From IMG/VR virus record IMGVR_UViG_3300042401_002002: a stretch of DNA of 64,000 bases. The stretch is one strand, 5' to 3'. Under the pieces are notes generated by a model, which was not told the DNA's origin, did no database searches, and saw only the letters and a program-made list of their open reading frames with translations. This stretch comes from a virus. Lineage: Duplodnaviria > Heunggongvirae > Uroviricota > Caudoviricetes. Of this stretch, positions 23,628 through 64,000 are shown piece after piece. The position numbers were made by a program, and so were the translations under genes. How positions within the stretch are numbered: position 1 is the first letter of the stretch; each line of letters opens with the position of its first letter.

Positions 23628-26166
23628 CTATTTTAGTTTTTCAACACGTTTAGTTAAATTTTTAATAACTTTTTCTAAACTTGCTTTATCATTCTTAATG
23701 TTGATAATTAAGTTAGAACTATCGTCTGAACAAACAATTTCCCTTATAGTATTTTGTTCAAAGAACTGTGCCGTTACTGCAAGAAATTCATTTGTAATAT
23801 CTGTTTTGTTGCCAACCCACATTCTTTTTTCTGGATTTTGTTTACCAAGGTACACCTTATCAGTTAAAGGTGAATATCCTATTCCGTTTTTTGCTGCCAT
23901 CTTTTATTATTTATTTGTTTTGACCATAACTACAATATTTACCACAATCACATTCATCTGAATTAAAATACTCACAGTGTTTTGAAAGAGGTAACTTTTC
24001 AACAGGTTTCTCGTTTACAACCTTTAGTTTACGCAAATCTATTTCAAGTTGTTCAATAATATTTGAAATAGCTTTCTCACGTTCTTCAGCACAACTTGGT
24101 TCATCACCATAGTTATAGTATATACCTGTATTACTATAAGGAAATTTATAATTTGGATTATAAATTTTACGAATATTGTTGAGTGCTTCGTTTTTCTTTA
24201 ATTCCCTAGCTTTTAATATTTTTGTGTTGTTCATATTAATCTAATTTACTTGCTTTTTCAAATATGTAATCACAACCACTTATTACATCAGATTCTTCTA
24301 AGTCATCCAATATTTCTTCTATTTCAAATATTTGTCCTTCAAGATAACCTAAAGAATACCCTCCCCAGTAAGTATATTTTAATTCATTGCCTTTATGTTC
24401 ATTTTTATAATTATCACGTCTTTCTTTTAAACGTTCTAATCGTCTTTTTAGTTTATCTGTATTTATCATAACTATTTTAAAATTTCATCTAAATATAATT
24501 CAAACAAAGTCAACATTAGTTGTTTGTTTTTCAACTGACTTCTATGATGATTAACAGATATTTCAAAATCAACCTCTTCACAAATTAACTTCGTTTTATA
24601 ATACGTTATCCCACATGATTGTCCACCAAGTTTTGGGACTTCTGTTTCCCACTTGACTAACCCTTTATAGTATTCTTTAGTTGGTTGTTGGTCCATTAGT
24701 TATTTATTTCAAAGAATTTTCTTGTGCTAGTTTTTGTTCCAAATAAATTATTGATTGAATTAAGTAAAAACCAAACATTATCAGTTAAATCCTTTCCGTC
24801 AATTAATTTGCTGTAAATGTTATTTTCTACAATAAAGCCAGAACAATTGGTTTTACCTATTTCAAGTACTAGTCGTTTATCATCTTTATCAAACTCAATA
24901 GTAATAGTTCCATTAGGATTAGGGAAGAAATCATCTATTAAATCAAAATGATTATTATCTAAACAACCAATAAATTCATTAAATTTATTTATAACTTCTT
25001 CAGATACTTTAATAGCACCATAATTGTCCCAGTTATCTTCTAATAACTTAATTTCATCTAAATATTCTTGCAGTTCAGTTTTAGTCATTGTTATTTAAAC
25101 GTTTAAGAACTTTATTAGCTTTTTTCTTTGATTTGAATGAAGTTCTAGCTAAAGTCATAAAACCAGTATCTTTAAATATTTCAAGAAATTTGTAACCAAA
25201 CTCATTTACATGAACCCATTCAGTTACAGTCTTTTTCCACCAGAACAAACCTGTAGTTCTTTCAACTAACATTTCAATGATAAAATTATCCTTTGAAAGT
25301 TTAGTTATTCTGTATTTATCTTGTGACATAATTAAATAAACTTAAATTCTCTTAACTTTTCATTAAATTTTTTACTATTTTGACCATAAGCAAACGCTAA
25401 ATCTTCTAATAAAGTTATTTTTAACTCATCAGTAAGTTCAACTTCTTTTGCTCTTTCCATAGTGGTTCCTCTTAATTCATTCCACCCTGAATCAGGATTT
25501 CTATCACGGTTTAAACCGAATTCAGTTACTTCTCTAGTATTTATGTCCAAAACAGGTTGACCATATATAGTGTATATTTTCATAACTTTATTATTTAAAC
25601 GTTTGCCAAGAGTTGGAGAATCGAACCCGTTTGTTTACTATATCTAGCTGTTCCATTTATATAAAACAAATACACAACCCCTGGTTTTGTTAGTCTTTTA
25701 TTTTATATAAATGGAACACTAATACATATTCAAAATCATCACCAAAGTCCTCATCATCAATATATTCACATTCTCTGTTAAGTATACCTATATACGGTCC
25801 CCATTTGTGCCATCTCCAACCACCACCTTTACCTTTATTATCCTTATCTTGACCAACTGGTGTTAATGAAATCACATATTTATTTTCAGTATCACTAATT
25901 TCATCTTTGAAATATTCTTTTATCTGCTCAACATTATCAGCAACGCCATACTCAGATTTACTATAATCAGTAAATATTTTTTCGTCATCGTATGTATGTT
26001 TTTCCATTTCAACAAACTCAAATTTGCGAAAGTTGAACCCGTTATCATAATATATACCTGTTTCTAACATACGTTGATGTTGTGGATAATAAGTAAAATT
26101 ATTTTCTTTAGCTACTTGATAACATCTATCAATTTCTTCTTGTATTGGTGTTAATTGTACTAACAT
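23628..26166 (-). CDS. Cluster of small hypothetical genes (25690-26166, 25332-25583, 25081-25329, 24696-25088, 24472-24696, 24236-24469, 23911-24234, 23628-23900)
   Basis: Contiguous minus-strand ORFs after the promoter motif at about 26200-26222. Confidence 0.65.
25605..25684 (-). ncRNA. Degenerate tRNA-like element
   Basis: CCAGGGGTTG/CAACTCTTGG terminal stem with a GGGTTCGATTC T-loop at the 3' side. Intergenic. Confidence 0.3.
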
Positions 26167-26236
26167 ATACTTATTGTTTTAATTGTTTATACTATCTTCA
26201 ACGCAAATCTAAACAAAAGGTTACAATAAACCTAAA

Positions 26237-29107
26237 TTATTTTCTATAAAATATAAAAATTTTATCGTAATCAAACATTTGTATAGCGGTTTCAATATTA
26301 ATTATATTGTAATCACTTGTCGTATAAGTTGATAATGTATTACTTGGGTCAAATATTTTTAATTTCATCTTCTATAAATATTTAATTGACCAATATGTGG
26401 TTGGTCGAGATAATAAAATTTTCCTCTAATTATGTTTATATCTTTTTCATTAAATACTTTAAGATAATCAATATGAAACCTCAAATTATGTAAACCTAAA
26501 TGTTTTAATATGTTTTGTCTTGCAAGTTTCATCTTCTTCTATAAAACGTTAATAAAATATTTCTTTTCCAAAGTTTTATAATGTCAGATAATTCCAATTC
26601 TGAACCATCAGTTACAACCCTATTATACACAAAATAATTTAATTGTTTACCTACTGCAAGTTTCATCTTCTGTAAATTGTTAAAGTGTTTAACCAAAGTC
26701 TTGTGTCGATTTCAAATTCACCCAGTAAATATGAACAACAACTAGTCAAATTAAATCGTGTTTTGTTATATCTTGGTTCTTCTATTTTAAGTTTCATCTT
26801 CTGTAAATTGAAATTACATTTATCCTGTGCTTCATTACTACCTCAATTTTACCTGTCGCTAAACATTTAGCTAATTCACGTTCCGAAAAACCTTCTCCAA
26901 AGTTTTGTAATCTAGTTATCTTAAGTTTCATCTCAAATAAATCACCAATTCGTTTACAAATATATCAATATTTTTTATAACATAACTAATATTAACTGAT
27001 TTTTTTAATACATGCTCATTATTAAACGTTATTGATTTATTAAAATAACCTGGTTTGGAAGCATCTGTTATTGAGAGTTTCATCTTGAATGAATAATTAA
27101 TCTATTTGTATATGTTAATTTTGTGCGAAATCCTTTGCGAGTTATTGTAGAAATAATTGAACTACTTTGTACCTTAATTAAAATAGGATGTATTTTAAGT
27201 TTCATCTTACAAATATATTTATTGTATTATTTAAAGGATAACCAAATGATATCACTAAAGTATTAACTGAACTATATAATTTAGTTGTATTAAATTTAGT
27301 TGGTACTAGAGTATGCATGTTATCAATGTGGTTAAAAACCATGTCTGTTATATTTACTATCTTAAGTTTCATCTTCTACTATAAATTAAAATTATATTTT
27401 TGTCGTATGGATTTGTTTCGTAACCCACATACAGACTGTGAAGTTCCTGAAAACTTATATAATACGCTGAGTTACTTACATCAAATATCTTAAGTTTCAT
27501 AAACGTACATAATATTTAGTTCTTTATTTTCTATGTCAAATTGATGGTAACTATTATCAATTAATACTGTATATATCCAACTAGTACTAAATGGTCCAGG
27601 TGATAAGTAAAGTTTAAGTTTCATCTTACATATAACATTAATTCATTGCGAATGCTTTTAAAATATTTAATTTTTGATACTGTTATTATATTAAAATAAC
27701 TTGAGTTAATGAATTTCACACCTACAAAACAAGTTATTTCTAATCTCATTTTGAAAGAATTATTAATGTGTTTAAATTTATTAATTTAACTTGAAAACCT
27801 TTACGTGTTAATACAGGTATGATTGAACTATATTGAATCTTAGTTAGAACAGGGTGTATTTTAAGTTTCATCTTTTGTATATTTTTATTCTATTAAAATC
27901 ATCGTCAAACATCATTGCGAATTCACCTGTTTCATTATGGTAACCTATTGTCCAAATTACATTAAATTTCTCATAACCATAAATGTCGTGTTTTTCTATT
28001 AATATTTTCATCTTTCACAAATATAAATTAAGTTAGTTATTTTATTATCTATTTTATGATTTGAATTTAGTACTAAATATTTATATAACCAACTATCATT
28101 AAATATATATTTAGAATGTTCTGAATAATCATGTAATTTAAGTTTCATCTTTTGTAAACTGTTATAATGTTACAGTATTCTTCACGTTGAAATAACGACC
28201 AAGTTCTAGCTCCGTTTATTAACATCCAACCTAATGATGTTAAATTAAAATTTTGATGATGTTGATTAAACATTTTGTCAATATTAAGTTTCATCTTTCG
28301 CTATTTTTATAATAAACGACAATATTGTTTTTGGACCTGTAGTCAAATGAACTGAACGGATAAACAAAATATAATAATTTGTTTAATGTAGTATCCCAAA
28401 CAGAATGACCCAATGTTCTTTTGTCTATGTTTAATTTCATCTTACATTTATTACAATATAATTTAAATCTTCATTATTAATATCAAAACTACCTGGTTTA
28501 ATTAAACATTCACAATGCCAAGTGTTTTTAAAGGTAAGGTAAGCATCATGCGAGCAATCGTATATTTTAAGTTTCATCTTTTGTAAATTTCTATATGGTT
28601 ACAAAAACCATTATCTAAATTAAATTTCACTTTTTCAGTTAATAAATTATATATAGTACTATGTTCAAAATTTTTATAAACATGATTAGTAAATTTCAAT
28701 ATTTTAAGTTTCATCTTCTATAAACTGTTATAACATTTAAATCATCTTTATCAATCGTATAATTATGAATACCTAGAAATACATGACATATCCAAGTTTC
28801 ATTAAACATTTTACTGTAATTCACTACTTTAAGTTTCATCTTTTGTAAATTTTAATATGATTTAAATCCCCGGAAATAATACCAAATTTATTTTGAGTAA
28901 GTAATTCAAATTGCCATTCGTTTTGGAACCTATATTTTGAATAGTTTCTTATTGTTAATCTCATCTACTGTAAATAATTACTTCATTAAGAAACTCATAT
29001 TTGTTAGTGATTACCCAGTTAATATTCATCTCAACACTTTTGATGTTATTATTTGTAAATCTAAGGTTTGTGTTGTTATTACCTATATTATCTATTCCAA
29101 GTTTCAT
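26237..29107 (-). repeat. MKL micro-ORF array 4 (21 consecutive units)
   Basis: ATGs at 29107, 28964, 28839, 28714, 28577, 28440, 28294, 28148, 28011, 27871, 27749, 27624, 27500, 27372, 27205, 27083, 26931, 26797, 26666, 26532 and 26368. Example 26797-26663: MKLKIEEPRYNKTRFNLTSCCSYLLGEFEIDTRLWLNTLTIYRR. Confidence 0.92.
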
Positions 29108-29127
29108 AATCATTCATTTTATATTTA

Positions 29128-29135
29128 CAAAACTA
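29128..29135 (-). promoter_or_regulatory. Bacteroidota-type -7 promoter box (TAnnTTTG) heading array 4
   Basis: TAGTTTTG about 20 nt upstream of the first ATG. Equivalent boxes at 22049, 38052, 56877 and 60733 head other array-containing operons. Confidence 0.55.
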
Positions 29136-29182
29136 ACATTTTTTATTTGAATAAACAAAACTATTTACAATAAAATATTATT

Positions 29183-29383
29183 ATGAAAATTTCAAATACA
29201 CAAAAATACATCATCGAATTCGTTTTATTCGTGATAGGTACTGTTTTATTAGGGTTTGCAACTCACTGGACCGGAAATATTATTTCTTATTCGGATACAC
29301 TTACTATTGTTGCTTTGGTAACTATATTTAGTCCATTCGCAATTGAAATAGGTGGTACCGTTCTTGGTGTTTTTAAAAAGTAA
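29183..29383 (+). CDS. Small two-helix membrane protein (holin-like candidate)
   Basis: Two hydrophobic segments and a basic C-terminus. CTATTTA lies upstream. Confidence 0.5.
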   Translation: MKISNTQKYIIEFVLFVIGTVLLGFATHWTGNIISYSDTLTIVALVTIFSPFAIEIGGTVLGVFKK

Positions 29384-29424
29384 AAAATAACCTCTAGTCT
29401 ATCTATTACTAGAGGTTATTTCAT

Positions 29425-32079
29425 TTAAAAGTGATAAGTAAAATACCCACAATCATAAATTGAAAATACATTACATTTAGATAAGAATTCTTCATCAGTC
29501 ATCCCGTCTTTATATTTACGTTTATGTAAATAATGTGTTTTGTAATGTTCTACATTAATATCATTAAACCTTTTATAACCTTTCATATAAAACCTTTTTG
29601 GTTCACTATGATTAACTGAGACACTTATCTTTTTAAATAAATTATTAGTTTCACTAAACCATCTTTTATCCAAAGTAACACATTTTATGTTGTTTTCTTT
29701 AATGAAATTAATAATCAAAGTTTCTAAGTTAACTATTTTATAAACAGGATTAACCAAAACTTCTTTAAGTTTACTACCCTTAACGGTAATAGCACCAAGT
29801 TTCTTATTACCTTGTTTAATGTAAAACAACTTATCGTAGTCCTGTGTTATTTGTAAACTTAATTTGTTAACTAAAACATCTTCTATGTTTGTTGTATTTT
29901 CTATTTTAGCATCACTCACAACAACTTTGTCTTTTAGTTGATACAAACTATCAACACTTAATAAAAACTCCTCAGATGTTTTAAAATCAAGCATCTTGAA
30001 GTAATTAAAATCAGAACCAACATATTTATCTACATTGAATAACTCCAGTATCTTGTTGAAAATTAAATATTCTTTGTTTAAATATTCATCCTCAAAAATA
30101 TGGATTAATCTATAACCATTAGCTTCAACTTCATTGGTCTTATCTAAATGATAATTTACATTTTGACCTTTATAATATTTATCCGAATGCCACAGCAAAC
30201 CATTGTACTCAATGCCGATTTTGTATTTATGTGACAATACATCAACCTCGCCAGAAGGAATAAAATCTCTTGGGTTACTTAATACATCTTTATCAATGAA
30301 ACCTTTAACAAATCGGTTGATTATTCTTTCTGGAATAGAACTGTTTGATGGACGAGTTTCAACTCCGTTAAGTTTTAAGTGTTTAATAACAATATGTCCA
30401 GGTACATTTAATGTTTTACCAATAGTAACAGCATCATATTCAAAATCAACGTATTTAGTAATCATTGATTTTATTTGTTCTTCTGTGAATTGGTAAATAC
30501 GTTTATCATAAACTGTTATGTTGTGTTCTTTTAAAATATCAGTTATAATGCCTTTGTGACATTCATATTTTTTAGCTAGTGTATTACTAGAAACACCACT
30601 ATTATATGAATTAAGTATATCAGTTATTTCTTCATCTGTAAATGTAACTTTAAAATCTCTAATTTCAACACCATTAAATACTAAATTACGTCTTAACGTT
30701 TTCTTATTCAGTGAATATTTATCACACAATTCTCTAACTGATGAACCATTATTATATTCTTCAATTAAATTATTCATTAATTCAGATGAATAATGTAAAA
30801 ACCCGTCATTAACACCTATTTCTTTATTAAAGAATGGTGTGTATTTAATGTGTGTTAAACCACGTTTTTTAAATTCACTCGCTATAGTTTTGTAGGATAA
30901 TTTTAGGTCATCAGCTATTTTGTTAATACCCTCACCATTATCATTTCTTTGTTTAATTGATTCAAATAATTCATCAGTTACGTTAGAGAATCTATTATCA
31001 AGAAAATCTAAAGTATATCGTTTGATTATTTTGGTTAATGTTTCAACAGATGTATTAAAATATTCAGCTATATAATCTTTGCTGAGACCCTGTTGATTAA
31101 ATTCAACCATTTTATCTAAATCTTCTTGTGAAAATATTAAACGTTGACCATGCATGTATCGTTTTAATTCTATGTTATTTTTCTCTAACTGGTTAGTTAA
31201 GAAACTGTAAGTATAACCGAATTTTTCACATAACATTCCTAAGCCATGTTCTTCTTCAATATTTAATCTAACTATTTCATTTAGTTCTTCTTTAGTTAAA
31301 TCAACAACACACCTATTGTGTAGTTTTATACCATGTTTTTCACATTCACGTTTGAAAACTGAATCTTTGAATTTTAAATCAATAGCTATTTGCGTATATG
31401 GAATTTTTTCAACATGATGTTTTTGAATAATAATCTCTTTTTCCTCTTGAGTTAATTTTCTTGTACTATCAAAAGTGTTTGGCGTTAATCCTAATTTTTG
31501 TAAAGCTTTACCTACAACCTTGTGGTCAAAACCCATTTCTTTACCGATACCACTGTTATGTAAACCTTGCGAATGAAGTTCTTTTAACTTAATTATATTT
31601 TCATCATCGTATATAGAAACATCTTTATTTGGTTTTATATTTAAATGTTGATATATTCTATGAACAACATCATGACCCAACTTTAACGTTGTTTTCATGG
31701 TAGATATATTACCACCTTCATTATGAAGTTTTAAGAATTTATCTAAAACACTTTGTTGTAAATATTTTTCACCTTTCTCTGTTAAGTCAACACCTAGTTG
31801 TAATAAATCTAATTTAAGTGACTTATTGTTACCTAACCCGCGTTTTTCACTTATAGTTCTCATTGAGAGACCATTTTTAATGTCGATTTTAACTAATTCT
31901 ATAACATCATCAGTTAAATAACTAGGTCTTCTATAATTAGGTAATTTATAACCTGCTGTAAGAAATTGCAATTTAAAGGTATCAATAGCAATATTAAACT
32001 CTCTACTAATTTCTACTAGCAGTTTACCATTTAATAAATAATCATTTGCTTTACTTAATTGTTCTTTTGTCAACTCCAT
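29425..32079 (-). CDS. Multi-HTH-repeat protein with a C-terminal DUF559/Vsr-like (Hef-type) endonuclease; putative homing endonuclease
   Basis: About 11 repeats of about 50 aa (helix-G-S-x-x-x-I-A pattern), then EVDV...IGIEYNGLLWHS...GYRLIHIFEDEY and a terminal IYDCG. Confidence 0.7.
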   Translation of the reverse strand: MELTKEQLSKANDYLLNGKLLVEISREFNIAIDTFKLQFLTAGYKLPNYRRPSYLTDDVIELVKIDIKNGLSMRTISEKRGLGNNKSLKLDLLQLGVDLTEKGEKYLQQSVLDKFLKLHNEGGNISTMKTTLKLGHDVVHRIYQHLNIKPNKDVSIYDDENIIKLKELHSQGLHNSGIGKEMGFDHKVVGKALQKLGLTPNTFDSTRKLTQEEKEIIIQKHHVEKIPYTQIAIDLKFKDSVFKRECEKHGIKLHNRCVVDLTKEELNEIVRLNIEEEHGLGMLCEKFGYTYSFLTNQLEKNNIELKRYMHGQRLIFSQEDLDKMVEFNQQGLSKDYIAEYFNTSVETLTKIIKRYTLDFLDNRFSNVTDELFESIKQRNDNGEGINKIADDLKLSYKTIASEFKKRGLTHIKYTPFFNKEIGVNDGFLHYSSELMNNLIEEYNNGSSVRELCDKYSLNKKTLRRNLVFNGVEIRDFKVTFTDEEITDILNSYNSGVSSNTLAKKYECHKGIITDILKEHNITVYDKRIYQFTEEQIKSMITKYVDFEYDAVTIGKTLNVPGHIVIKHLKLNGVETRPSNSSIPERIINRFVKGFIDKDVLSNPRDFIPSGEVDVLSHKYKIGIEYNGLLWHSDKYYKGQNVNYHLDKTNEVEANGYRLIHIFEDEYLNKEYLIFNKILELFNVDKYVGSDFNYFKMLDFKTSEEFLLSVDSLYQLKDKVVVSDAKIENTTNIEDVLVNKLSLQITQDYDKLFYIKQGNKKLGAITVKGSKLKEVLVNPVYKIVNLETLIINFIKENNIKCVTLDKRWFSETNNLFKKISVSVNHSEPKRFYMKGYKRFNDINVEHYKTHYLHKRKYKDGMTDEEFLSKCNVFSIYDCGYFTYHF

Positions 32080-35712: not shown

Positions 35713-37584
35713 ATTTCGTAAAAATAGTTATCGAATCAGATAGAAATCTTTTGTTGGTTAATATCCATTGGTACCAAAAATTATTAAATTTATGATATTG
35801 GTAGTGTTTTATTATGTTAAGTTTCATCTTTTAAATGTTAAAATTTTATTGTAGTATTCTTTTGAACCTGTAAAATCTTCAATATACCACTCATCGTGAT
35901 TATTATCTAATAGTTGATTTCCAACAAACTTCCAGTTATTAGGTATTCTTATAAGTTTCATCTCCAATAAATAATTAATCGGTTTAATCTGAAAGATTCA
36001 TTTCTATTAAGTAATAATATTTCTAAACTACTACTATCATTTATACCTGATATATTCAAAAACCTTAATGTAAATTTTGTGTTTTTAAGTTTCATCTTGG
36101 AAATGTTATTAATTTGTTATGCTTAGTATTATCTATAAGTTCACTAAGACACCAATTTTCAGTTAAATTTTGGAAAACATCTTTTTTCTCGCCAACAAAT
36201 TTCCACTTATGATTAGTTATATTAAGTTTCATCTTGATAACGATATAAGTTGATTATAAAACATTTTATAATCTGTAATAGTTTGAATAAAACTTCTTCC
36301 ATCACTATATATAATATCGAATTTAGTATAAAATTTCTCTCTTTTAAGTTTCATCTCCAGTAAATATAAATTCTATTATGTACTTTATTATTTAAATCAT
36401 AATTAGGTTGAAACTCATTAAACCAATCTTTATTAAATCTGGTTGAATTATTTAGTTGTATTTTCATCTTAGTAATGTTATTATTGTATCATACAAACCA
36501 ATTGTTATTAATTTTTCATACGTAATATAGCCTACTGAAACATTACAGACGAGTTTTAAATTTATATTTGTTCTTACCAATTTCATTTCAATATCTTTTT
36601 AATTTCATTAAAACTAAACGCTGGTGATACATCTGTGTAATTTAAACCAATGTTTGCTCTACAGAAGATACCTTCATACATTTCAACGTTATCTATTGGG
36701 AATATATGTGAAACACAATCACGTTTTATATTGTGTTTAGTTAGTAATTCTTTTAGTAAAACTCTCAATGTAGAATATTGTTCTTTTGTGTAGTTATGCC
36801 ACAAAGTTTGGTCCATGTATTTCTTTCTGAATACTTCATCACTTGGTACCAATACATTATACCAGTTTTCAAAAGTATCATTATCAACTTCTTTCAACCA
36901 ACCTAGATTTTCTAAACAAATTGTTATGTTATAACTATCAATTTTATTAATACCTGTAATCTTGTTATGAAATTTAGTATCCATAAATTGCGTTAAAACA
37001 CCTTCTCTGTTGATTATATAGTGTGGTTGAATAACTTCATGTTGCAAAGATAATCTGTCCGTGTAGTCATGTTCTTTCATCAAAGAATTGATTAACATAA
37101 TTCTATCCTTTGGTGTTTCTTTGGTTGTTATTTCTGGTTTCATCTTGTAAAGGTTATTAGTACATCATTCCACTTATAGTTAATTATAGTTTTTAAACTA
37201 TAATAACCATCTGAATAATTAATATTATTAGTAGTTATTAATTTAGCTATAACTCTGTTTCTTATGTAAAGTTTCATCTTTTTAAAATTGTAATTACATT
37301 AATAAAGGAAGAATATGTTTGTATTATTTCTTCTATTGTCCAAGTTCTTATATTAGAAACATTACCAATTGAATATCCGTAATAATTAAAATCCTCGTTA
37401 GATTTATCATGTTTAGAAATATCATGTATTGTAAGTTTCATGTTAAGTTATAATATCTTGTTTCATCTTTTATAAATATAACTAATTTATTTCTATGTTC
37501 CCAATTATGATTTTTCCATTCTCTAGTTAATACTAACGTATTAATATGAAAATAATGTCCAGTATTTAATATTTTAAGTTTCAT
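35711..37584 (-). repeat. MKL micro-ORF array 5 (10 units around an amidase-like gene)
   Basis: ATGs at 37584, 37441, 37277, 36586, 36467, 36354, 36232, 36095, 35961 and 35827. Confidence 0.88.
36583..37143 (-). CDS. N-acetylmuramoyl-L-alanine amidase-like protein (Amidase_2 fold)
   Basis: PHYIINREG, ITICLENLG, YTKEQY, CVSH and DVSPAF. The first Zn-ligand His is not evident. Confidence 0.7.
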   Translation of the reverse strand: MKPEITTKETPKDRIMLINSLMKEHDYTDRLSLQHEVIQPHYIINREGVLTQFMDTKFHNKITGINKIDSYNITICLENLGWLKEVDNDTFENWYNVLVPSDEVFRKKYMDQTLWHNYTKEQYSTLRVLLKELLTKHNIKRDCVSHIFPIDNVEMYEGIFCRANIGLNYTDVSPAFSFNEIKKILK

Positions 37585-47088: not shown

Positions 47089-50000
47089 TTATAACTTATT
47101 ATTGTTGTTTAAAAACTCATTTAGTAATTGAACTGTTTCATTTGAATTTTGACTTAAACTTGTTTTGTCTTCAACTTCTTTAAGTAACTGAACCAATTCG
47201 TTATTTGTTTTATTTGCTCTATACAAATATTTTTCTTTTAACTGAAATGGTTCTTGTTCACCTTGTGGTGCAGCTCCACCTGCTGGGTTATTACCTGCAT
47301 CCATTGGTCCACCCATAGCATCGGCTCCTGGTTCAGCAGGTTGTTCACCGTTAACTTGTGCTGGGTCTAATGATGAAGTAATAATACCTCTTTTAATGTA
47401 TTCCTCTAAATCATTGAAAATACCTGATTTTTTAAGAATTAAACCAGCATTTTTAATTTCATCACCAACAACATTTTCAATCATTTGTTGTTTAATATCA
47501 TCAAGTATTTCATCAGCTGATAAACCAAAAATAAGTTTTTTAGCATTTGTTTCTGACATAGGTTTTAAACCTGTTTCATTTGATGTCGTTAATTTAACAT
47601 ATAAATCAACTTTTTGTGTAAATGCTTCAATTTTAAGTATTTCTGATTGTGTAGATGGGTTATTTAAAGTTAATTTATAATCTCTAATATCATCATCACT
47701 GTAACCTAATAAGAATAAATGTATTAATGCAATTTTGTTTAATTCTTGAATCATTGCATTTTGTATTCTCATTACTTTTCTAGAAAATACAATATCTGTT
47801 TGAGCATTATTGTCACCACCACCTTCTCCAGAACCTGAGAAATTAAGTCTGTTTTTAGGTACACCTAAACCTGTAAATAAGTTATCTCTTAAGTATTCAA
47901 TATCTGCAATTTTATCTAAATTATCAGCACCTTCTAAAATATCAATTGGTGAAGGGTCACCAGCGTTTTTAACTGCAACAAATATATCTTCAACACCACT
48001 TGCTGGACTATATTTGTAATTAATTTGTCCTGTTGCAGGGTCAACTATTTGTGATTTTTTAAAATTTGAAATAGTTTGACGCATAAACATTGGGATATCT
48101 GCTGGGTCCATATTACCAGTAGGAACTTTAACTACTTTAACCCTTGCAGCATTAGTTGCTCTATATACTAATTGAGCATCTTCACTCATTTTTAACATTC
48201 TGTAATACATTCTAACAGGTGCCAGTACAGATGTACCATAAGGTAACGTATTTTCATCACCTAATAACCTAAAATGTGCCACTTGGAAGTTAGTATATTC
48301 TTGTCCACCTAATTGCCAAATAAATTTAGTTGTTGGTTTTCCATTTATAATTTTTTCTTGTCTTTCTATTTCAGATGTAGGTAATTGTTTAACATTTACA
48401 ACACCTTTATCTGCTTCAGTCATTACAAATAAAAAATTATCACCAAACTTGCAGTTTGACAAAAATACACCAGAAGTTCTTGAGTATGAACCGTTTATGT
48501 CTTTACCTAGTACTGGAAAATTATGTCTATCATGTTCACCGTTAGGACCAACAGCTTCTAAACAGTAAACATCCGAAGTTTCTTCTAATTTAACAACGGA
48601 AACTACTTTATGGTTTACAACCTTAGTTTTACCTAAAAAAATTGCTTTAGCTCTTATATAATCTTTATCTAATATTAAAGTTGGTTTAATAGATAAAACA
48701 TAATCAAAATAATTTAACTCAGTTTTTCTCTTTAAAACATTTGTTAGTGTTGCATGGTTTATAGATTTAATAATATCTTTTCTTAAAGTATAAGTTTCTT
48801 TAAAAAGATTTATAAATTCAGTATCAATTTTTAATAATTGAGCTAGTTTATTTATACCAACATAATTTTCGTTACTTGCTATAATATTAGTTATATAGTT
48901 TAAACAACTATCAGATATTTCTATTGTCATACCTTTTTTTGTTTTCGCAACAAATTCTTCATTAGACCAATTCTCTAACATTTTTTTTGTACGGATTTCA
49001 TTATGTTCACTGTGTAAATCACTATTATTATATTCATTAAAATATTTTGGATAAATACCTGTCATTTCTTTTGACATTCTTTGTCTACGAGCATCAGATG
49101 TTAGATATTTGTGGATACCTTCTAAACGTTTTTTTGTAATTTCAGGTGAATGTAATACTTGTTTACAAAGGTCTGTGTGTATTTTAAAATGTTCACTGTT
49201 AGTTAATCTTTGTAAATTATGTGGGTGATTATTTAGTTTATTAAAATCAATGTGATGTGTGTCAAAACGTTCATTGACAGTTTTTTCATATTCCAAATCA
49301 CGCACACATTCATGTGCTACCATACGATGAGTAAACTTATATTTACCAGTACTTGGGTTAAATACTTTTTCATAACCACCTATTTGGTCTTGTTTTTTAT
49401 TACTTTTTTTGGTGTAATAAGGCATTAACGATTGACCAGGTGTTAATTCATCAGCTCTTTTAAATGAACCGTTTCTTAACATGTATTCATGGTCTGGTGT
49501 TGTATCTATATATGTACCATCATCTAACGTTACACGATATAATTCACTATTTTTTCTAGTTAAGTCACACCAAACAATTTTACTAGGTACAATAGCGTGT
49601 GTCTTATCCTGAATAGAATAAGACCAGATTTCTTCACCTAATTTAATTCTATCTGATAATTCTTTTATTGTACACTCAGTACCATCTAATAATGGTATCA
49701 TTGAATTCTCTCTAATTGGAGTGTTTCTCACCCAGAAAGGTAGATTAGTATTAATATCTAAAATCTCATAAAATAAGTATTCTAAATCTTCTTTTAGTCT
49801 ATTATTGTTAGAATAAATGTTTAACATTTGACCTCTATCACCTATCGTTGTGGCTTCTTCAGCTAAAACATTTAAAGCTTGAGCTATGATAGGGTATGAT
49901 TCCATCATTTTATATTCAACATAAGCAGGTAATCTTAAAGCATTGGCTTGAACTGCTTGCATATCATTTTGTTGGATGATATGTGAATGTTGTTTATAAA

Positions 50001-50172
50001 GATATTGCGTTTGTTGGTATTCTAATTTTTTATCTTCTAATTCTTCTTTAGAAGATGCTGTAATAAGTTCTTTTTTTTCTATTGGTGTAACAAATTGATT
50101 ATTATCATGTTTATTAACCTTTCCTGTTAATCTATTATAGGCTGATTCCCATAAACTAGTTTTTTCTGCCAT
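47089..50172 (-). CDS. Portal protein (T4 gp20-like) with an intein
   Basis: WVRNT^CKFGDNF, VAHFRL, PYGTSVL, EDAQLVYR and DIEYLRDNLFTGLGVP. Confidence 0.88.
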   Translation of the reverse strand: MAEKTSLWESAYNRLTGKVNKHDNNQFVTPIEKKELITASSKEELEDKKLEYQQTQYLYKQHSHIIQQNDMQAVQANALRLPAYVEYKMMESYPIIAQALNVLAEEATTIGDRGQMLNIYSNNNRLKEDLEYLFYEILDINTNLPFWVRNTPIRENSMIPLLDGTECTIKELSDRIKLGEEIWSYSIQDKTHAIVPSKIVWCDLTRKNSELYRVTLDDGTYIDTTPDHEYMLRNGSFKRADELTPGQSLMPYYTKKSNKKQDQIGGYEKVFNPSTGKYKFTHRMVAHECVRDLEYEKTVNERFDTHHIDFNKLNNHPHNLQRLTNSEHFKIHTDLCKQVLHSPEITKKRLEGIHKYLTSDARRQRMSKEMTGIYPKYFNEYNNSDLHSEHNEIRTKKMLENWSNEEFVAKTKKGMTIEISDSCLNYITNIIASNENYVGINKLAQLLKIDTEFINLFKETYTLRKDIIKSINHATLTNVLKRKTELNYFDYVLSIKPTLILDKDYIRAKAIFLGKTKVVNHKVVSVVKLEETSDVYCLEAVGPNGEHDRHNFPVLGKDINGSYSRTSGVFLSNCKFGDNFLFVMTEADKGVVNVKQLPTSEIERQEKIINGKPTTKFIWQLGGQEYTNFQVAHFRLLGDENTLPYGTSVLAPVRMYYRMLKMSEDAQLVYRATNAARVKVVKVPTGNMDPADIPMFMRQTISNFKKSQIVDPATGQINYKYSPASGVEDIFVAVKNAGDPSPIDILEGADNLDKIADIEYLRDNLFTGLGVPKNRLNFSGSGEGGGDNNAQTDIVFSRKVMRIQNAMIQELNKIALIHLFLLGYSDDDIRDYKLTLNNPSTQSEILKIEAFTQKVDLYVKLTTSNETGLKPMSETNAKKLIFGLSADEILDDIKQQMIENVVGDEIKNAGLILKKSGIFNDLEEYIKRGIITSSLDPAQVNGEQPAEPGADAMGGPMDAGNNPAGGAAPQGEQEPFQLKEKYLYRANKTNNELVQLLKEVEDKTSLSQNSNETVQLLNEFLNNNNKL
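48454..49719 (-). mobile_element. 422-aa intein with an HNH homing endonuclease in the portal gene
   Basis: Begins PIRENSMIPLLDG; block B TTPDH; HNH HHIDFNKLNNHPHNL; block F VYCLEA; ends GVFLSN before Cys. Confidence 0.85.
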
Positions 50173-53480: not shown

Positions 53481-54895
53481 TTATGTCCTAAAAACTATAC
53501 AAATTATTAAAATCTATACAATTAATTTTATAAAAGGATTGGATTTGTTGACACATATTTCAACTCGAATACGTCCCTTACTTTTATTGGGTTGAACAAT
53601 AATCCACTATCAATTATCTTACTAACGTAAGAATCAAAGACTACTTTTCTCATTATGTTAACTGCTCCGTTAACATCTGCGTTTATCAACCCTTTGGCTG
53701 ATTGAAACAAACCACGTTGAACTCTTTTGTTTACTTTAAAGAACCCATTCGGTATCGCTTCGCCATACTTATACAATTTCTCTAATATCAAACTATCTGT
53801 TTTTGAGGTATAACTTTCTTCTGTTTCAACTACTTTTATACCCACCATTTCACACTTATATTTAATCTTATTTAAGAGATTCAAATAAGAAATGTAACAA
53901 AACTTTTGGTTATTAATTCTACCAATATCAATGGAGTCCTTCCATTGTTTGTTGTAACCAACTATTAAATTACCTATCTTATTATCTACCAAATAATCTA
54001 CAATGTACCTACTTACCTTGTGATATATATCATTCAATGTGTTCTCTCTATCTACATATAAATCTTTGATTTGTTCTGTTAGACCTTTTATTTTTTGTTT
54101 ATCTTTAATTGAAGTTAATCTAGCTAATTCTTTGTTAAAGAACTGATTGTAACTTTTAATCTGATTACCGCTAAGTAAAACAGGGTTAGTTAATGAACTA
54201 ACCAAAGTTACTAAGTTATTAACACCTAAGTCAATTGAAGCGTGTTCATCGTAGTTAACATCTTTATTTTCAATATGTTTTTCATAAACAATTTCAACTT
54301 TGATGTAATTCTTTTTAGGAATCAACCTAACTTGATTAAAGTTGATTATATCTTTTTTGTATTTATCAAACTGTGGTACAGCTATTTTTAATGTTTTAGA
54401 TAAATGTATGTATCCATCATGTTTAATAATACATGATTGATTTGGATAAATTAAGTTAGATAAACTATTTTTACGTTTAAAATTAGGTAATTTAGGTTTA
54501 CCTTTATATTTAGTCGGGTTCTTTGACCAATCTCTAATAGCAGCAATGTAAGATTTAACATCTTGTTCAAGAACCTTTAATGTTTGTTGAGCAACTTGTG
54601 CTTTAAGTAATCTATAATTAACAGTACCTTCTAAATTAGTTTTACATTTCATTAACACATCTAACTGTTTATAAAACAAAAACTTACCTTCGTTATTAAG
54701 GTTTGTTTTAACTTCATAAAGAGCCTGATTGTAAAGGTTGTTAGCAACTTTACAAAGTTCAGTTAGATGAGTAGCTGTATTAATGTCAAATGTGTAAACT
54801 AATCTCATTTATTGTGTTATTAAATGTTATTTATTATAAATAGTAAAAACTATTAAATAATTTGATATATAGAATAAATTCTATATATTTGTGTG
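53481..54895 (-). mobile_element. tnpB-only IS200/IS605-family element (IS1341-like)
   Basis: Removing 53481-54895 restores an intact micro-ORF. Left-end hairpin ATATATAGAAT-AA-ATTCTATATAT at 54865-54888. No tnpA in the window. Confidence 0.85.
53528..54808 (-). CDS. tnpB: TnpB RNA-guided endonuclease
   Basis: NNLYNQA, KPKLPNFK, RuvC-I IDLGVNNL, EESYTSK and RuvC-III NADVNGAVNI. Confidence 0.92.
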   Translation of the reverse strand: MRLVYTFDINTATHLTELCKVANNLYNQALYEVKTNLNNEGKFLFYKQLDVLMKCKTNLEGTVNYRLLKAQVAQQTLKVLEQDVKSYIAAIRDWSKNPTKYKGKPKLPNFKRKNSLSNLIYPNQSCIIKHDGYIHLSKTLKIAVPQFDKYKKDIINFNQVRLIPKKNYIKVEIVYEKHIENKDVNYDEHASIDLGVNNLVTLVSSLTNPVLLSGNQIKSYNQFFNKELARLTSIKDKQKIKGLTEQIKDLYVDRENTLNDIYHKVSRYIVDYLVDNKIGNLIVGYNKQWKDSIDIGRINNQKFCYISYLNLLNKIKYKCEMVGIKVVETEESYTSKTDSLILEKLYKYGEAIPNGFFKVNKRVQRGLFQSAKGLINADVNGAVNIMRKVVFDSYVSKIIDSGLLFNPIKVRDVFELKYVSTNPILL

Positions 54896-62273: not shown

Positions 62274-64000
62274 TTAAACTGAACAAGCACCTGATTCACA
62301 ACCGACATCATTTGAATTAGATTCATTATGTGTCTTTTCAAGTTCATTAATTAAATCATCACTATTACCATCTTCAGTATTAGCGTAATATAATGTTTTT
62401 AAACCCATTTGGTATGAATACAAAATATCTGTTGAAACTTGTGAAATAGGAATTTCGCCACCATTTTTAGTTGCATTATAATAATGGTTAGAGCTAATAG
62501 CCTGGTCAATATATTTTTGAATAATAGCTTGAATATTAATCAAATGTTTATTATCACCGATTTCAAAAGCTAATTGATATTTGTTTTTTAATTTACTAAT
62601 CTCAGGCACTACCATTTTTAATGTACCTTGTTTAGATGTTTTAGTTGTTAATAAACTTCTAACCGGTTCAATACCGTTTGTTGAGTTAGATACAACAGAT
62701 GATGATTCACAAGGCATAATAGCTGTCAATGTACTATTTCTCATGCCATAAGTTAAAACATCTTGTCTTAAGGATTCCCAATCTAATGTTAATGGTCTGT
62801 TAACAATTTTATCTACATTTTTGTTATATGTATCAATAGGTAAAATACCTGATGAGTATTTAGTTTGGTCAAAATATTCACATTTACCATATTCTTTTGC
62901 TAATTTAACAGAAGCTTTGATTAAGTAGTATTGAATATGTTCCATTAACTCATCAACAAATGGTAAAGTTTCTGGAGTAGTATATGTTAAGTTATTTTTA
63001 GCTAAATAATAAGCTAAGTTAGTAATACCCACACCTACACTTCTACGTTTTAACATTTTCCTAGCAGCTGGAACTGGATAATCTTGTTTTTCAATGATAA
63101 AATCAAGTCCTCTTAAAATGTTTTCACATAATCCTTCTAATTCATCTAATGTTTTTAATTCACCCAAGTTAATAGCTGATAAAACACATAAAGCAATCTC
63201 TCCATTTTCTGTATGTAAATCAGTTATTGGTGTGGTTGGTAAGGTGATTTCCTGACAATTACCTGTGATTATACCATTAAAAATAACTTTATGTCTTTTA
63301 GGTTCATTAACACAATATGTATCATCAATTCTACCTAAATCTTCTATTTTAGTTATCGTTATACCTGAAATAATTTCACTATCAATAGAGTATGTTTCAA
63401 TTTTATCGTCAATAACTAATTCATTTGCTCTAACTTCTTTGTTACCTTCTAAATAAAATTTATGATATTCAGTACACTCAATAGTTTGTCCGTTACTAAA
63501 ACTAATTTTAATTATTTTTTGGTTCTCACCTGTTTTAACAATAGTTGTTGTACTAAACTCTTCACCATTCCATACGTTAACTTCCTTACCTGCGTTATCA
63601 CCAATTGTAATATAACCTTGGTCAGTTAAAATTTGAGTTTCTGGCGCAACACAAAGATTTGACATAGTAACACTTTGTTTAAAAGAACTATGTGTGTTTA
63701 CATGGTCTGCATTAAATAAATAAATTCTACCTGTACCGATTCTTTCTTGAATATATGAATTAAATAATTCTCTAGCACCAATAACAGTTTTTTTAATCAT
63801 TTTGTTATTCTCTAAACGAACATATAATTCTTCAAATTTATCATTGTCTTTGAAAAATAATTCATATAGTGTTGGACTATCACCAGGTGAAAATAATGTA
63901 ATATTACCGTTTTCTACTACACGTTTATAAAATAATCTATTAAATTGAATAGAATAATCCATACCACGTACTCTGTTTTCAGTTGCGCCTTTATTATTTT
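62274..64000 (-). CDS. nrdA: Ribonucleotide reductase class Ia alpha subunit (5' end outside the window) with a mini-intein
   Basis: The frame is open to the window edge (KNNKGATENRVRGMDY). SNL^CQEI, LKTLYY and C-terminal CESGAC. Confidence 0.95.
   Translation of the reverse strand, partial: NNKGATENRVRGMDYSIQFNRLFYKRVVENGNITLFSPGDSPTLYELFFKDNDKFEELYVRLENNKMIKKTVIGARELFNSYIQERIGTGRIYLFNADHVNTHSSFKQSVTMSNLCVAPETQILTDQGYITIGDNAGKEVNVWNGEEFSTTTIVKTGENQKIIKISFSNGQTIECTEYHKFYLEGNKEVRANELVIDDKIETYSIDSEIISGITITKIEDLGRIDDTYCVNEPKRHKVIFNGIITGNCQEITLPTTPITDLHTENGEIALCVLSAINLGELKTLDELEGLCENILRGLDFIIEKQDYPVPAARKMLKRRSVGVGITNLAYYLAKNNLTYTTPETLPFVDELMEHIQYYLIKASVKLAKEYGKCEYFDQTKYSSGILPIDTYNKNVDKIVNRPLTLDWESLRQDVLTYGMRNSTLTAIMPCESSSVVSNSTNGIEPVRSLLTTKTSKQGTLKMVVPEISKLKNKYQLAFEIGDNKHLINIQAIIQKYIDQAISSNHYYNATKNGGEIPISQVSTDILYSYQMGLKTLYYANTEDGNSDDLINELEKTHNESNSNDVGCESGACSV
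63258..63653 (-). mobile_element. 132-aa mini-intein in NrdA
   Basis: CVAPETQILT...ECTEYHKF...TYCVNE...GIITGN, followed by Cys. No endonuclease domain. Confidence 0.88.

What the first reader, a model, noticed from the sequence alone, without database searches (positions are those of the whole stretch)
26237..29107. Longest array: 21 uninterrupted units, which could be a reinitiation chain, a frameshift-fused polyprotein or processed RNA
Seen: 2.9 kb of consecutive units with no spacer DNA, almost all joined by a 4-nt ATGA overlap and usually with an Arg AGA codon before the stop, behind one TAGTTTTG box. Inference: the conserved junction may enforce termination-reinitiation with near-stoichiometric output. 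Alternatively, a -1 slip at A/AGA-TGA would fuse units into a repeat polyprotein, or the 13-nt motif could be an RNA processing site.
Basis: partly seen in the sequence, partly recalled or inferred. Interest (0 to 1): 0.7.

Follow-up and report, generated by a model that had tools for sequence, protein, structure and literature searches.

The report
Chain of 21 phage microprotein genes
An uncultured, very AT-rich T4-like phage carries 21 back-to-back genes for related 41-56-residue proteins of unknown function. Each gene's stop codon overlaps the next gene's start (ATGA), and this short joint is also where related phages swap whole genes.

Summary
From 29107 to 26237 there are 21 tiled ORFs of 41-56 aa. 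19 of 20 joints are ATGA overlaps and 18 of 21 units end in Arg AGA. The units are real genes: interior dN/dS against a related phage is 0.39 (CI 0.28-0.54), with out-of-frame controls of 0.78 and 0.96. They belong to an orphan family (MKLxI...NxLxIYxR) with about 88 copies, 18% of the 69.9-kb record.

- Every unit keeps its own ATG.
- Synonymous sites around each start are biased: A at -3, AAA-CTT-AAA-ATA after the ATG.
- One Bacteroidota-type promoter-like site (TTTG-N20-TAGTTTTG) precedes the array, and there is no terminator inside it.

A frameshift polyprotein is not supported. There is no slippery heptamer, no RNA structure, and one joint is in the wrong frame. Processing at a structured RNA site is not supported either. 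Coupling itself, and equal output, remain untested.

In a syntenic 21-unit array only 13 units are shared, two are in a different order, one is absent, and homology breaks exactly at the joint core. Earlier follow-ups of this scan reached the same family-level reading on other windows of this genome. The proteins' function is unknown.

The parts
29128..29159 (-). Promoter-like site TTTG-N20-TAGTTTTG. The -33-like TTTG is at 29156-29159 and the -7-like box at 29128-29135, 20 nt before the MKL start of unit 1.
   Evidence: the bipartite pattern occurs 16 times against 4.8 expected, mostly 20-45 nt before start codons. The consensus TTTG/TANNTTTG is from PMC6847099. Activity was not tested.
28961..29107 (-). 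Unit W1, 48 aa from the MKL start (an in-frame ATG at 29113 adds MI). Not shared with relative L055.
28836..28964 (-). Unit W2, 42 aa. Ortholog in L055 (83% aa) and L057.
28711..28839 (-). Unit W3, 42 aa. Replaced by an unrelated unit in L055. 62% aa match in L057.
28574..28714 (-). Unit W4, 46 aa. Ortholog in L055 (93% aa).
28437..28577 (-). Unit W5, 46 aa. Diverged ortholog in L055 (50% aa).
28291..28440 (-). Unit W6, 49 aa. Ortholog in L055 (94% aa).
28145..28294 (-). Unit W7, 49 aa. Not shared with L055.
28008..28148 (-). Unit W8, 46 aa. Absent from L055. 85% aa match in L057.
27868..28011 (-). Unit W9, 47 aa. Ortholog in L055 (91% aa).
27746..27871 (-). Unit W10, 41 aa, ends in Lys AAA. 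Closest paralog is W15 (57% interior identity). Replaced in L055.
27621..27749 (-). Unit W11, 42 aa. An intact ortholog exists in L055 that its gene caller did not call (74% aa).
27490..27624 (-). Unit W12, 44 aa. Ends ...YET with TAA inside the next unit's MKLK codons, giving an 11-nt overlap. The same end is present in the L055 ortholog.
27369..27500 (-). Unit W13, 43 aa. Ortholog in L055 (70% aa).
27202..27372 (-). Unit W14, 56 aa. Ortholog in L055 (75% aa).
27080..27205 (-). Unit W15, 41 aa. Paralog of W10. Replaced in L055.
26928..27083 (-). Unit W16, 51 aa. Its ortholog in L055 lies after the ortholog of W18, so the order differs.
26794..26931 (-). Unit W17, 45 aa. Not shared with L055.
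26663..26797 (-). Unit W18, 44 aa. Its ortholog in L055 has a different downstream neighbour.
26529..26666 (-). Unit W19, 45 aa. Ortholog in L055 (91% aa).
26365..26532 (-). Unit W20, 55 aa. Absent from L055 as a clean one-unit indel bounded by two joints.
26237..26368 (-). Unit W21, 43 aa, ends ...YRK with TAA. Last unit. Ortholog in L055 (77% aa).
26204..26211 (-). -7-like box TAGATTTG between the array and the next gene (158 aa, 25690-26166). It has no TTTG partner at 18-21 nt.
   Evidence: Homology to L055 ends about 40 nt past this box.

Best explanation
The stretch is a single operon of 21 separate genes for small proteins, on the minus strand of a T4-like phage. Its transcription and translation signals look like those of Bacteroidota hosts.

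The likely course of expression is as follows.
1. Host-type RNA polymerase probably starts at the TTTG-N20-TAGTTTTG site and reads through all 21 units, because no terminator lies inside the array.
2. Each unit is translated as its own 41-56-residue protein.
3. A ribosome that terminates at UGA sits one base from the next AUG. It can restart there (termination-reinitiation), and the A-rich, unstructured, Shine-Dalgarno-free joint may also allow fresh initiation.

The same 13-17-nt joint core (AGATGAAACTTAA, often followed by AATA) is the only DNA shared by all units. It serves as the crossover point at which related phages gain, lose, replace and reorder whole units.

What is shown: the units are coding and under purifying selection; there is nucleotide-level constraint at the joints; breakpoints fall at the joints. 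What is inferred: a single transcript, coupling, early timing, the Bacteroidota host, and any role of the proteins. My guess for that role is a library of host-directed or anti-defence proteins.
For: Coding, separate genes:
- 21 tiled ORFs.
- For 12 orthologous pairs against L055, interior dN/dS is 0.39 (bootstrap 0.28-0.54). The other two frames give 0.78 and 0.96.
- Every unit starts with ATG.
- Interiors keep weak positional similarity (z = 16 against shuffles).

Initiation at each joint:
- 19 of 20 joints here, and 67 of 73 in the record, are ATGA.
- Synonymous A at -3 of the next ATG occurs 66 times out of 73 against 48.9 expected. A is also enriched at -12, -15 and -18.
- Codon 3 is Leu CTT in 53 of 84 cases, against 14% genome-wide (p = 2e-25). 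Codon 5 is ATA in 48 of 59 Ile codons (81%), against 47% ATA among Ile codons in unit interiors. No bias is seen beyond codon 6.
- The same biases appear in 57 units of relatives.
- A at -3, -12 and -13 raises initiation in Flavobacterium johnsoniae (PMC6847099).
- Larger genes of the record have A-rich upstream regions without G-rich Shine-Dalgarno motifs.
- Joints are unstructured: mean MFE -4.1 kcal/mol per 60 nt, z about 0.
- ATGA pairs were strictly coupled in 13 of 14 tested cases (PMC6728339).

One transcript: there is one enriched bipartite promoter-like site upstream and none inside the array. E. coli-type promoters are at chance level, and there are no terminators in 25000-30000.

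Crossover at the joint:
- The L055 array has 21 units, of which 13 are shared (71-96% nt identity for the 12 pairs measured) and 8 are not.
- W16 and W18 are in a different order, and W20 is a clean one-unit indel.
- Identity drops from above 90% to background exactly at the core.
- L057 shows a third arrangement: W2-W3-W8.
Against: - There are no expression data of any kind. The transcript, the start site and coupling are all inferred.
- A pure reinitiation chain would lose output geometrically over 20 joints, so 'stoichiometric' is doubtful.
- The -7 box has G at its first variable position, which F. johnsoniae promoters almost never have (TAHHTTTG). The host polymerase assignment is therefore uncertain.
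- The synonymous-site biases could come from repeated recombination or gene conversion at the core rather than from selection on translation. The two cannot be separated here.
- A 13-17-nt core is short for homologous recombination.
- The fold predictions are inconsistent: W2 has pLDDT 86 but W14 only 65, with different secondary structure. A common scaffold is therefore not established.
Confidence: 0.68

Rival explanations
1. A -1 ribosomal slip at A-AGA-UGA fuses neighbouring units into a repeat polyprotein. This could then be cleaved after the dibasic KR/RR ends.
For: The next unit is always in the -1 frame at ATGA joints. Many units end in KR or RR just before MKLK, which resembles a dibasic processing site.
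Against: - No X_XXY_YYZ heptamer lies in the last 8 codons of any of the 21 units (5 of 88 in the whole record).
- There is no stimulatory structure after the joints (z about 0).
- W12/W13 is in the other frame, and the same unit end (...YET, TAA inside the next start) is kept in the L055 ortholog.
- Other arrays have +1, +4, +6 and +11 spacers.
- Every unit keeps an ATG and an initiation-type context at synonymous sites, which a fusion would not need.
- 20 successive slips would give negligible full-length product.
Confidence: 0.03
2. The 13-nt motif is an RNA cleavage site, so the operon RNA is cut into unit-length pieces, either as mRNAs or as small RNAs.
For: The core is constrained at the nucleotide level beyond what the protein needs (CTT, ATA and A at -3). 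It lies in single-stranded, A/U-rich RNA, which is the kind of context that RNase E-type enzymes prefer (my own knowledge, not tested).
Against: - There is no conserved hairpin and no Rfam match.
- The intervals are protein-coding under purifying selection in one frame only, so they are not spacers of a small-RNA array.
- A cut inside AGAUGAAAC would sever the stop or the start codon and would work against translation of one neighbour.
Confidence: 0.08
3. The units are separate genes, but each is initiated afresh and independently. The ATGA overlap is only compact packing, and there is no functional coupling.
For: Every joint carries the features that favour fresh initiation on Shine-Dalgarno-blind ribosomes: A-rich, unstructured, A at -3. 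Joints with an 11-nt overlap or short spacers are tolerated. A pure chain would starve the distal units.
Against: ATGA is used at 92% of unit-unit joints (67 of 73) and TGA at 73 of 88 unit stops, whereas larger genes end mostly in TAA (26 of 33). Overlaps of this type were coupled in 13 of 14 tested pairs in other organisms. Distance strongly limits reinitiation, which would explain selection for the overlap.
Confidence: 0.2
4. The joint has no cis function at all. Its conservation only reflects the conserved protein ends (R-stop, MKLKI) and common descent of the paralogs.
For: The C-terminal motif N-x-L-x-I-Y-x-R shows protein-type conservation: second codon positions are fixed and the third position of the Asn codon is free, T or C.
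Against: Interiors are saturated (median 17% identity), yet synonymous choices at codons 2-5 and at -3 are held far from genome usage. Breakpoints between phages coincide with the core.
Confidence: 0.07

Closest known systems
PeSL (promoter-early stem-loop) cassettes in the hyperplastic regions of T4-type phages (Arbiol et al. 2010, PMC2839356; PMC4122927)
   Same: - It is a T4-like phage.
- Small non-essential genes lie in variable regions.
- A short repeated element between the genes is where insertions, deletions and replacements between close relatives begin and end.
   Different: - Here the repeated element is a 13-17-nt coding stop/start overlap. It is not an intergenic promoter plus terminator hairpin.
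- The genes are chained in one operon rather than each having its own promoter.
- All cassettes are paralogs of one family rather than unrelated ORFans.
Overlapping ATGA gene pairs coupled by termination-reinitiation (Huber et al. 2019, PMC6728339; 2023, PMC10666635)
   Same: The genes are co-directed with a 4-nt stop/start overlap. This is the commonest and experimentally coupled class.
   Different: - Known cases are pairs or short runs, often subunits of one complex. Here there are 20 consecutive joints between paralogs.
- The neighbours change between related phages, which argues against fixed partner stoichiometry.
- Coupling was not tested here.
Integron gene-cassette arrays
   Same: Both are promoter-less cassettes in one orientation behind a common promoter, with whole cassettes gained, lost and reordered at a repeated boundary.
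   Different: - The boundaries have no attC-like folded sites.
- No tyrosine recombinase is present in the 69.9-kb record, which is only 38% complete.
- The boundary is a translated overlap.
Internal-protein (ip) loci of T-even phages, where variable genes share a conserved N-terminal capsid-targeting sequence (recalled from memory, not checked here)
   Same: Both are T4-type phages with clustered genes that have conserved ends and very variable bodies, thought to serve against host defences.
   Different: - The ip proteins are larger and few per genome.
- There is no ATGA chaining.
- Here both ends are conserved, and nothing shows that the proteins are packaged.
- This is a lead only.

Membership tests
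Termination-reinitiation coupled overlapping genes | Co-directed genes whose stop and start overlap by 4 nt (ATGA) or 1 nt | tested here: met
   19 of 20 joints in the array and 67 of 73 in the record
Termination-reinitiation coupled overlapping genes | Both partners are real protein-coding genes | tested here: met
   Interior dN/dS is 0.39 (0.28-0.54), against 0.78 and 0.96 in the other frames
Termination-reinitiation coupled overlapping genes | Both genes lie on one transcript | tested here: inconclusive
   One promoter-like site upstream, none inside, and no terminator-like site. No RNA data.
Termination-reinitiation coupled overlapping genes | Translation of the downstream gene depends on translation of the upstream gene | not testable with these tools
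   Needs a reporter with premature stops, as in PMC6728339
Programmed -1 ribosomal frameshift fusion | Slippery heptamer X_XXY_YYZ in the zero frame at the shift site | tested here: not met
   0 in the last 8 codons of the 21 units, and 5 of 88 in the whole record
Programmed -1 ribosomal frameshift fusion | Stimulatory hairpin or pseudoknot a few nt downstream | tested here: not met
   60-nt windows on the joints have mean MFE -4.1 kcal/mol and z about 0. Unpaired probability is flat.
Programmed -1 ribosomal frameshift fusion | Constant -1 frame relation between the fused parts | tested here: not met
   W12/W13 has an 11-nt overlap (the other frame), and its unit end is kept in the L055 ortholog. 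Other arrays have +1, +4, +6 and +11 spacers.
PeSL modular shuffling | The repeated element is an early promoter plus a terminator stem-loop between genes | tested here: not met
   The joints overlap coding sequence, have no hairpin and contain no promoter
PeSL modular shuffling | Gene gains, losses and replacements between close relatives are bounded by the repeated element | tested here: met
   13 joint comparisons with L055 all break at the core. L057 gives a third order.
PeSL modular shuffling | Excised cassette mini-circles | not testable with these tools
   Needs PCR or long reads on phage DNA
Integron cassette array | IntI-type tyrosine recombinase next to the array | tested here: inconclusive
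   No PF00589 match in the 69.9-kb record, but the record is estimated 38% complete
Integron cassette array | attC-like folded recombination sites at cassette ends | tested here: not met
   No structure at the joints
CRISPR-like or other repeat-spacer RNA array | Long near-identical direct repeats separated by non-coding spacers, processed into unit RNAs | tested here: not met
   The core is only 13-17 nt. There is no unit-period tandem repeat and no Rfam match. The intervals are coding.
Bacteroidota primary-sigma promoter (-33 TTTG / -7 TANNTTTG) | Both elements at about 19-21 nt spacing, shortly upstream of a gene | tested here: met
   29128-29159(-). The pattern occurs 16 times against 4.8 expected in the window. 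The consensus is from PMC6847099.
Bacteroidota primary-sigma promoter (-33 TTTG / -7 TANNTTTG) | Refined F. johnsoniae -7 element TAHHTTTG, with no G at the two variable positions | tested here: not met
   The box is TAGTTTTG. Other boxes in this phage are TAGATTTG and TAGGTTTG.
Diversity-generating retroelement target | Reverse transcriptase and template repeat near the variable genes | tested here: inconclusive
   No PF00078 match in the record, which is a fragment. Variation is by whole-unit exchange, not adenine-specific substitution.

The most novel reading that the evidence does not exclude
The joint core is a selected, dual-purpose cis element. It restarts ribosomes on Shine-Dalgarno-blind host ribosomes, and it also acts as a portable crossover site. 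Together these would let a phage population shuffle a large library of microprotein effectors, one gene at a time, within promoter-less operons and without any dedicated recombinase. In effect this would be an integron-like cassette system built from a stop/start overlap.
Probability: 0.3. Interest if true: 0.75.

Novelty: new variant of a known kind. Interest (0 to 1): 0.55.

Why it matters
If the reading holds, nearly a fifth of this phage record is a library of about 45-residue proteins. The phage would express them from a few promoters by chaining stop to start, and reshuffle them gene by gene at the same short joint.

This would extend the PeSL idea of modular shuffling to a coding junction. 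It would also give a natural test bed for translational restart in bacteria that ignore Shine-Dalgarno sequences.

The family has no described relatives. A profile search of 1.84 billion proteins found only 10 hits, and some of the ten are the window's own units, letter for letter. Such short genes are easily missed by gene callers: one intact unit in L055 was not called. Their function, possibly host takeover or anti-defence, is open and could be tested by expressing single units.

Tried and rejected
Searches for relatives of the family:
- No DNA match to the array in the phage collection.
- No PHROGs family for the 61 units.
- ESM Atlas feature search gave no usable hit.
- Foldseek against PDB found nothing below E = 4.7, and VIA-align wide found no match at Z of 2 or more.

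Structure and binding:
- A second fold, of W14, had low confidence (pLDDT 65) and did not reproduce the W2 topology. I therefore make no fold claim.
- Complex prediction on two copies of W2 gave no verdict (score 0.00). This is neither evidence for nor against self-association.

Searches for related loci:
- 54 phages that carry the neighbouring 158-aa gene (28-61% identity) hold no family member within 10 kb.
- The 884-aa neighbour found no relatives in viral or JGI metagenome contigs.
- The paired-core pattern found nothing in IMG/VR. In metagenomes it found two true relatives (L060, L061) and five unrelated contigs of GC 0.38-0.48 with no family hits.

Alternative readings of the array:
- TGA read as sense gives extensions of only 1-23 codons, so there is no fusion.
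- E. coli-type promoters are at chance level.
- TAGTTTTG and TANNTTTG alone are not enriched.
- No integrase or reverse transcriptase is present in the record.

Literature: searches for a described equivalent found none.
Full report
SETTING. The window is the reverse strand of a single 69,893-bp linear IMG/VR virus record, which CheckV estimates to be 38% complete. GC content is about 25%. The record encodes a T4-type portal protein interrupted by an intein, a ribonucleotide reductase with an intein, and a TnpB-like gene. The portal is only about 30-35% identical to those of Flavobacterium and Microcystis myoviruses, and the array has no DNA match in the phage collection.

OBSERVATION. On the minus strand, 21 ORFs of 41-56 aa tile 29107->26237 without any spacer.
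- 19 of 20 joints are ATGA overlaps. The exception is W12/W13, an 11-nt overlap in which W12 ends with TAA inside the MKLK codons of W13.
- 18 of 21 units end in Arg AGA.
- The 13-mer AGATGAAACTTAA is exact at 11 joints. With up to 2 mismatches it occurs 58 times in the window against 9.6 expected, nearly all on the minus strand.
- Across the whole array each minus-strand frame carries about 10% stop codons, so 21 tiled open frames cannot be chance.
However, two copies lie 20 nt apart just upstream (29128-29135 and 29156-29163) and form TTTG-N20-TAGTTTTG. That bipartite pattern is enriched (16 against 4.8 expected, 0 of 100 shuffles) and mostly lies 20-45 nt before start codons.

THE UNITS ARE GENES OF ONE FAMILY. 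The alignment of 61 units gives the consensus MKLxI...F...NxLxIxxR, with pairwise identity to the reference unit of 15-39%.
- About 88 units in 17 runs cover 17.9% of the record. This array is the longest.
- Interiors are almost saturated (median 17% identity, maximum 57% for W10/W15) but still more alike than shuffled sequences (z = 16).
- L055, a contig from an ENA metagenome, is syntenic. It has the same 884-aa gene, the same 66-aa gene and a 21-unit array.
- For 12 orthologous pairs, interior dN/dS is 0.39 (bootstrap 0.28-0.54). The same columns read in the other two frames give 0.78 and 0.96. The flanking 884-aa gene gives 0.21.
- The family is an orphan. A profile search of 1.84 billion representatives found only 10 proteins, all 41-52 aa, and some of the ten are the window's own units, letter for letter. 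There was no PHROGs, Atlas or PDB-fold match.
- AlphaFold gives a fairly confident strand-helix-strand model for W2 (pLDDT 86) but a poor, different model for W14 (pLDDT 65). No common fold is established.

TESTING THE THREE MODELS.

(a) Frameshift polyprotein.
- No canonical slippery heptamer lies in the last eight codons of any of the 21 units (5 of 88 in the whole record).
- The 60-nt windows on the joints fold no better than shuffles (mean -4.1 kcal/mol, z about 0).
- W12/W13 is in the other frame, and its unit end is kept in L055. Other arrays have joints of -20, +1, +4, +6 and +11 nt.
- Reading TGA as sense adds only 1-23 codons.
- Every unit keeps its own ATG.
I put this model at about 3%.

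(b) RNA processing. There is no structure and no Rfam match, and the intervals are coding. Cleavage at a single-stranded site cannot be excluded from sequence alone. I put this at about 8%.

(c) Separate cistrons with restart. The sequence around each start is constrained beyond what the proteins need.
- Given the amino acids, A at -3 occurs 66 times out of 73 against 48.9 expected. A is also enriched at -12, -15 and -18.
- Codon 2 is always AAA.
- Codon 3 is CTT in 53 of 84 Leu codons, against 14% in the genome (p = 2e-25).
- Codon 5 is ATA in 48 of 59 Ile codons (81%), against 47% ATA among Ile codons in unit interiors (A-ending codons at this position: 67 of 88 against 41 expected).
- The bias stops after codon 6.
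- Units from relatives show the same pattern.
Adenines at -3, -6, -12 and -13 raise initiation in Flavobacterium johnsoniae, whose ribosomes ignore Shine-Dalgarno sequences (PMC6847099). The larger genes of this record likewise have A-rich leaders with no G-rich motif. ATGA pairs were strictly coupled in 13 of 14 tested cases, and coupling falls steeply with distance (PMC6728339, PMC10666635).

This model therefore fits. What remains inferred is the dependence on upstream translation. 'Near-stoichiometric' output is doubtful, because a pure chain with, say, 80% restart per joint would leave about 1% at unit 21. Fresh initiation at the A-rich joints probably contributes.

TRANSCRIPTION. There is one bipartite promoter-like site upstream and none inside the array. 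There is no terminator-like site in 25000-30000, and E. coli-type promoters are at chance level. Several other arrays in the record end in clear GC-stem/T-run hairpins. After this array there is only a -7-like box (26204-26211) before the next gene. The -33/-7 consensus TTTG/TANNTTTG is that of Bacteroidota. The phage boxes carry G at the first variable position, which F. johnsoniae promoters avoid. The host assignment is therefore likely Bacteroidota but not settled.

Compared with L055, the flank upstream of the array is 97-100% identical. Inside the array, blocks of 90-97% identity alternate with unalignable blocks, and the switches fall at unit starts.
- 13 of the 21 units are shared, at 71-96% nt identity for the 12 pairs measured. 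Eight are not shared.
- W16 and W18 are in a different order, and W20 is a clean one-unit indel.
- At 13 joints anchored on the ATG, identity is near-perfect on the orthologous side and at background on the other. Only the core is shared.
- A third phage fragment (L057) has W2-W3 followed directly by W8, behind four other units.
- The array around the amidase gene also varies in unit number between relatives.
The joint is therefore the crossover point for unit-wise exchange. This works like the PeSL elements of T4-type phages (PMC2839356), but it fails their defining anatomy because it has no promoter and no hairpin. No integrase or reverse transcriptase is present in the record. I cannot tell whether the synonymous-site constraint at the core is kept for translation, for recombination, or for both.

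EARLIER WORK IN THIS SCAN. Follow-ups on other windows of the same genome reached the same family-level conclusions: real genes, an orphan family, and PeSL-like unit exchange. I had noted the PeSL lead before reading them and tested the claims independently on this array.

VERDICT. The reinitiation reading is partly supported. The frameshift and processing readings are not supported by any sequence feature. The proteins' function is unknown. An early-expressed library of host-directed proteins is a guess based only on the promoter type and the T4 analogy.

Noticed in passing
window 29425-32079 (-): The 884-aa gene just upstream of the array has a long run of helix-turn-helix repeats. Its best NCBIfam hit is the CRISPR repeat-binding protein Cbp1 (90 bits, below the cut-off of 140). 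Its C-terminal part weakly matches the I-Bth0305I homing-endonuclease catalytic domain (PDB 3r3p, E = 0.0046). It is conserved in L055 (dN/dS 0.21). It could be a free-standing homing nuclease. Whether it acts on the arrays is unknown.
   Followed up: partly
window 36583-37143 (-): An Amidase_2 (N-acetylmuramoyl-L-alanine amidase) gene sits inside a microgene chain, joined by ATGA overlaps on both sides. The number of units on each side differs between relatives: 3+7 here, 3+9 in L055 and 9+10 in L058.
   Followed up: partly
window 25690-26200 (-) vs L055:12740-13300: The gene after the array (158 aa here) is replaced by unrelated small genes in L055. Homology ends about 40 nt past the -7-like box TAGATTTG. 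This is a replacement bounded by a promoter-like element rather than by a joint.
   Followed up: partly
window 47089-50172 (-) and 62274-63962 (-): The T4-type portal gene and the ribonucleotide reductase gene both carry intein splicing domains. A TnpB/OrfB_IS605 gene lies at 53528-54808.
   Followed up: no
window 29105-29117 (-): A 6-codon mini-ORF (MNDYET, stop TAA) starts at 29117 and overlaps the start of unit 1. It ends in the same TATGAAACTTAA arrangement as the odd W12/W13 joint. If the -7 box is used, the leader would be only about 10-16 nt.
   Followed up: no
L062-L066 (JGI metagenome contigs, GC 0.38-0.48): Five unrelated contigs hold 3-4 copies of the same 13-mer, at least two of them 105-135 nt apart, but have no family hits. 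This may be another repeat element or chance.
   Followed up: no
window, promoter-like boxes (e.g. 29128, 22049, 32103, 60733, all -): The phage's -7-like boxes are mostly TAGnTTTG, with G at the position where Flavobacterium johnsoniae promoters almost never have G. This may point to a different Bacteroidota host or a phage-modified polymerase.
   Followed up: no
L055:11060-11188 (+): An intact family unit (the ortholog of W11) was not called by the gene caller of the source assembly. Members of this family are likely under-counted in protein databases.
   Followed up: yes
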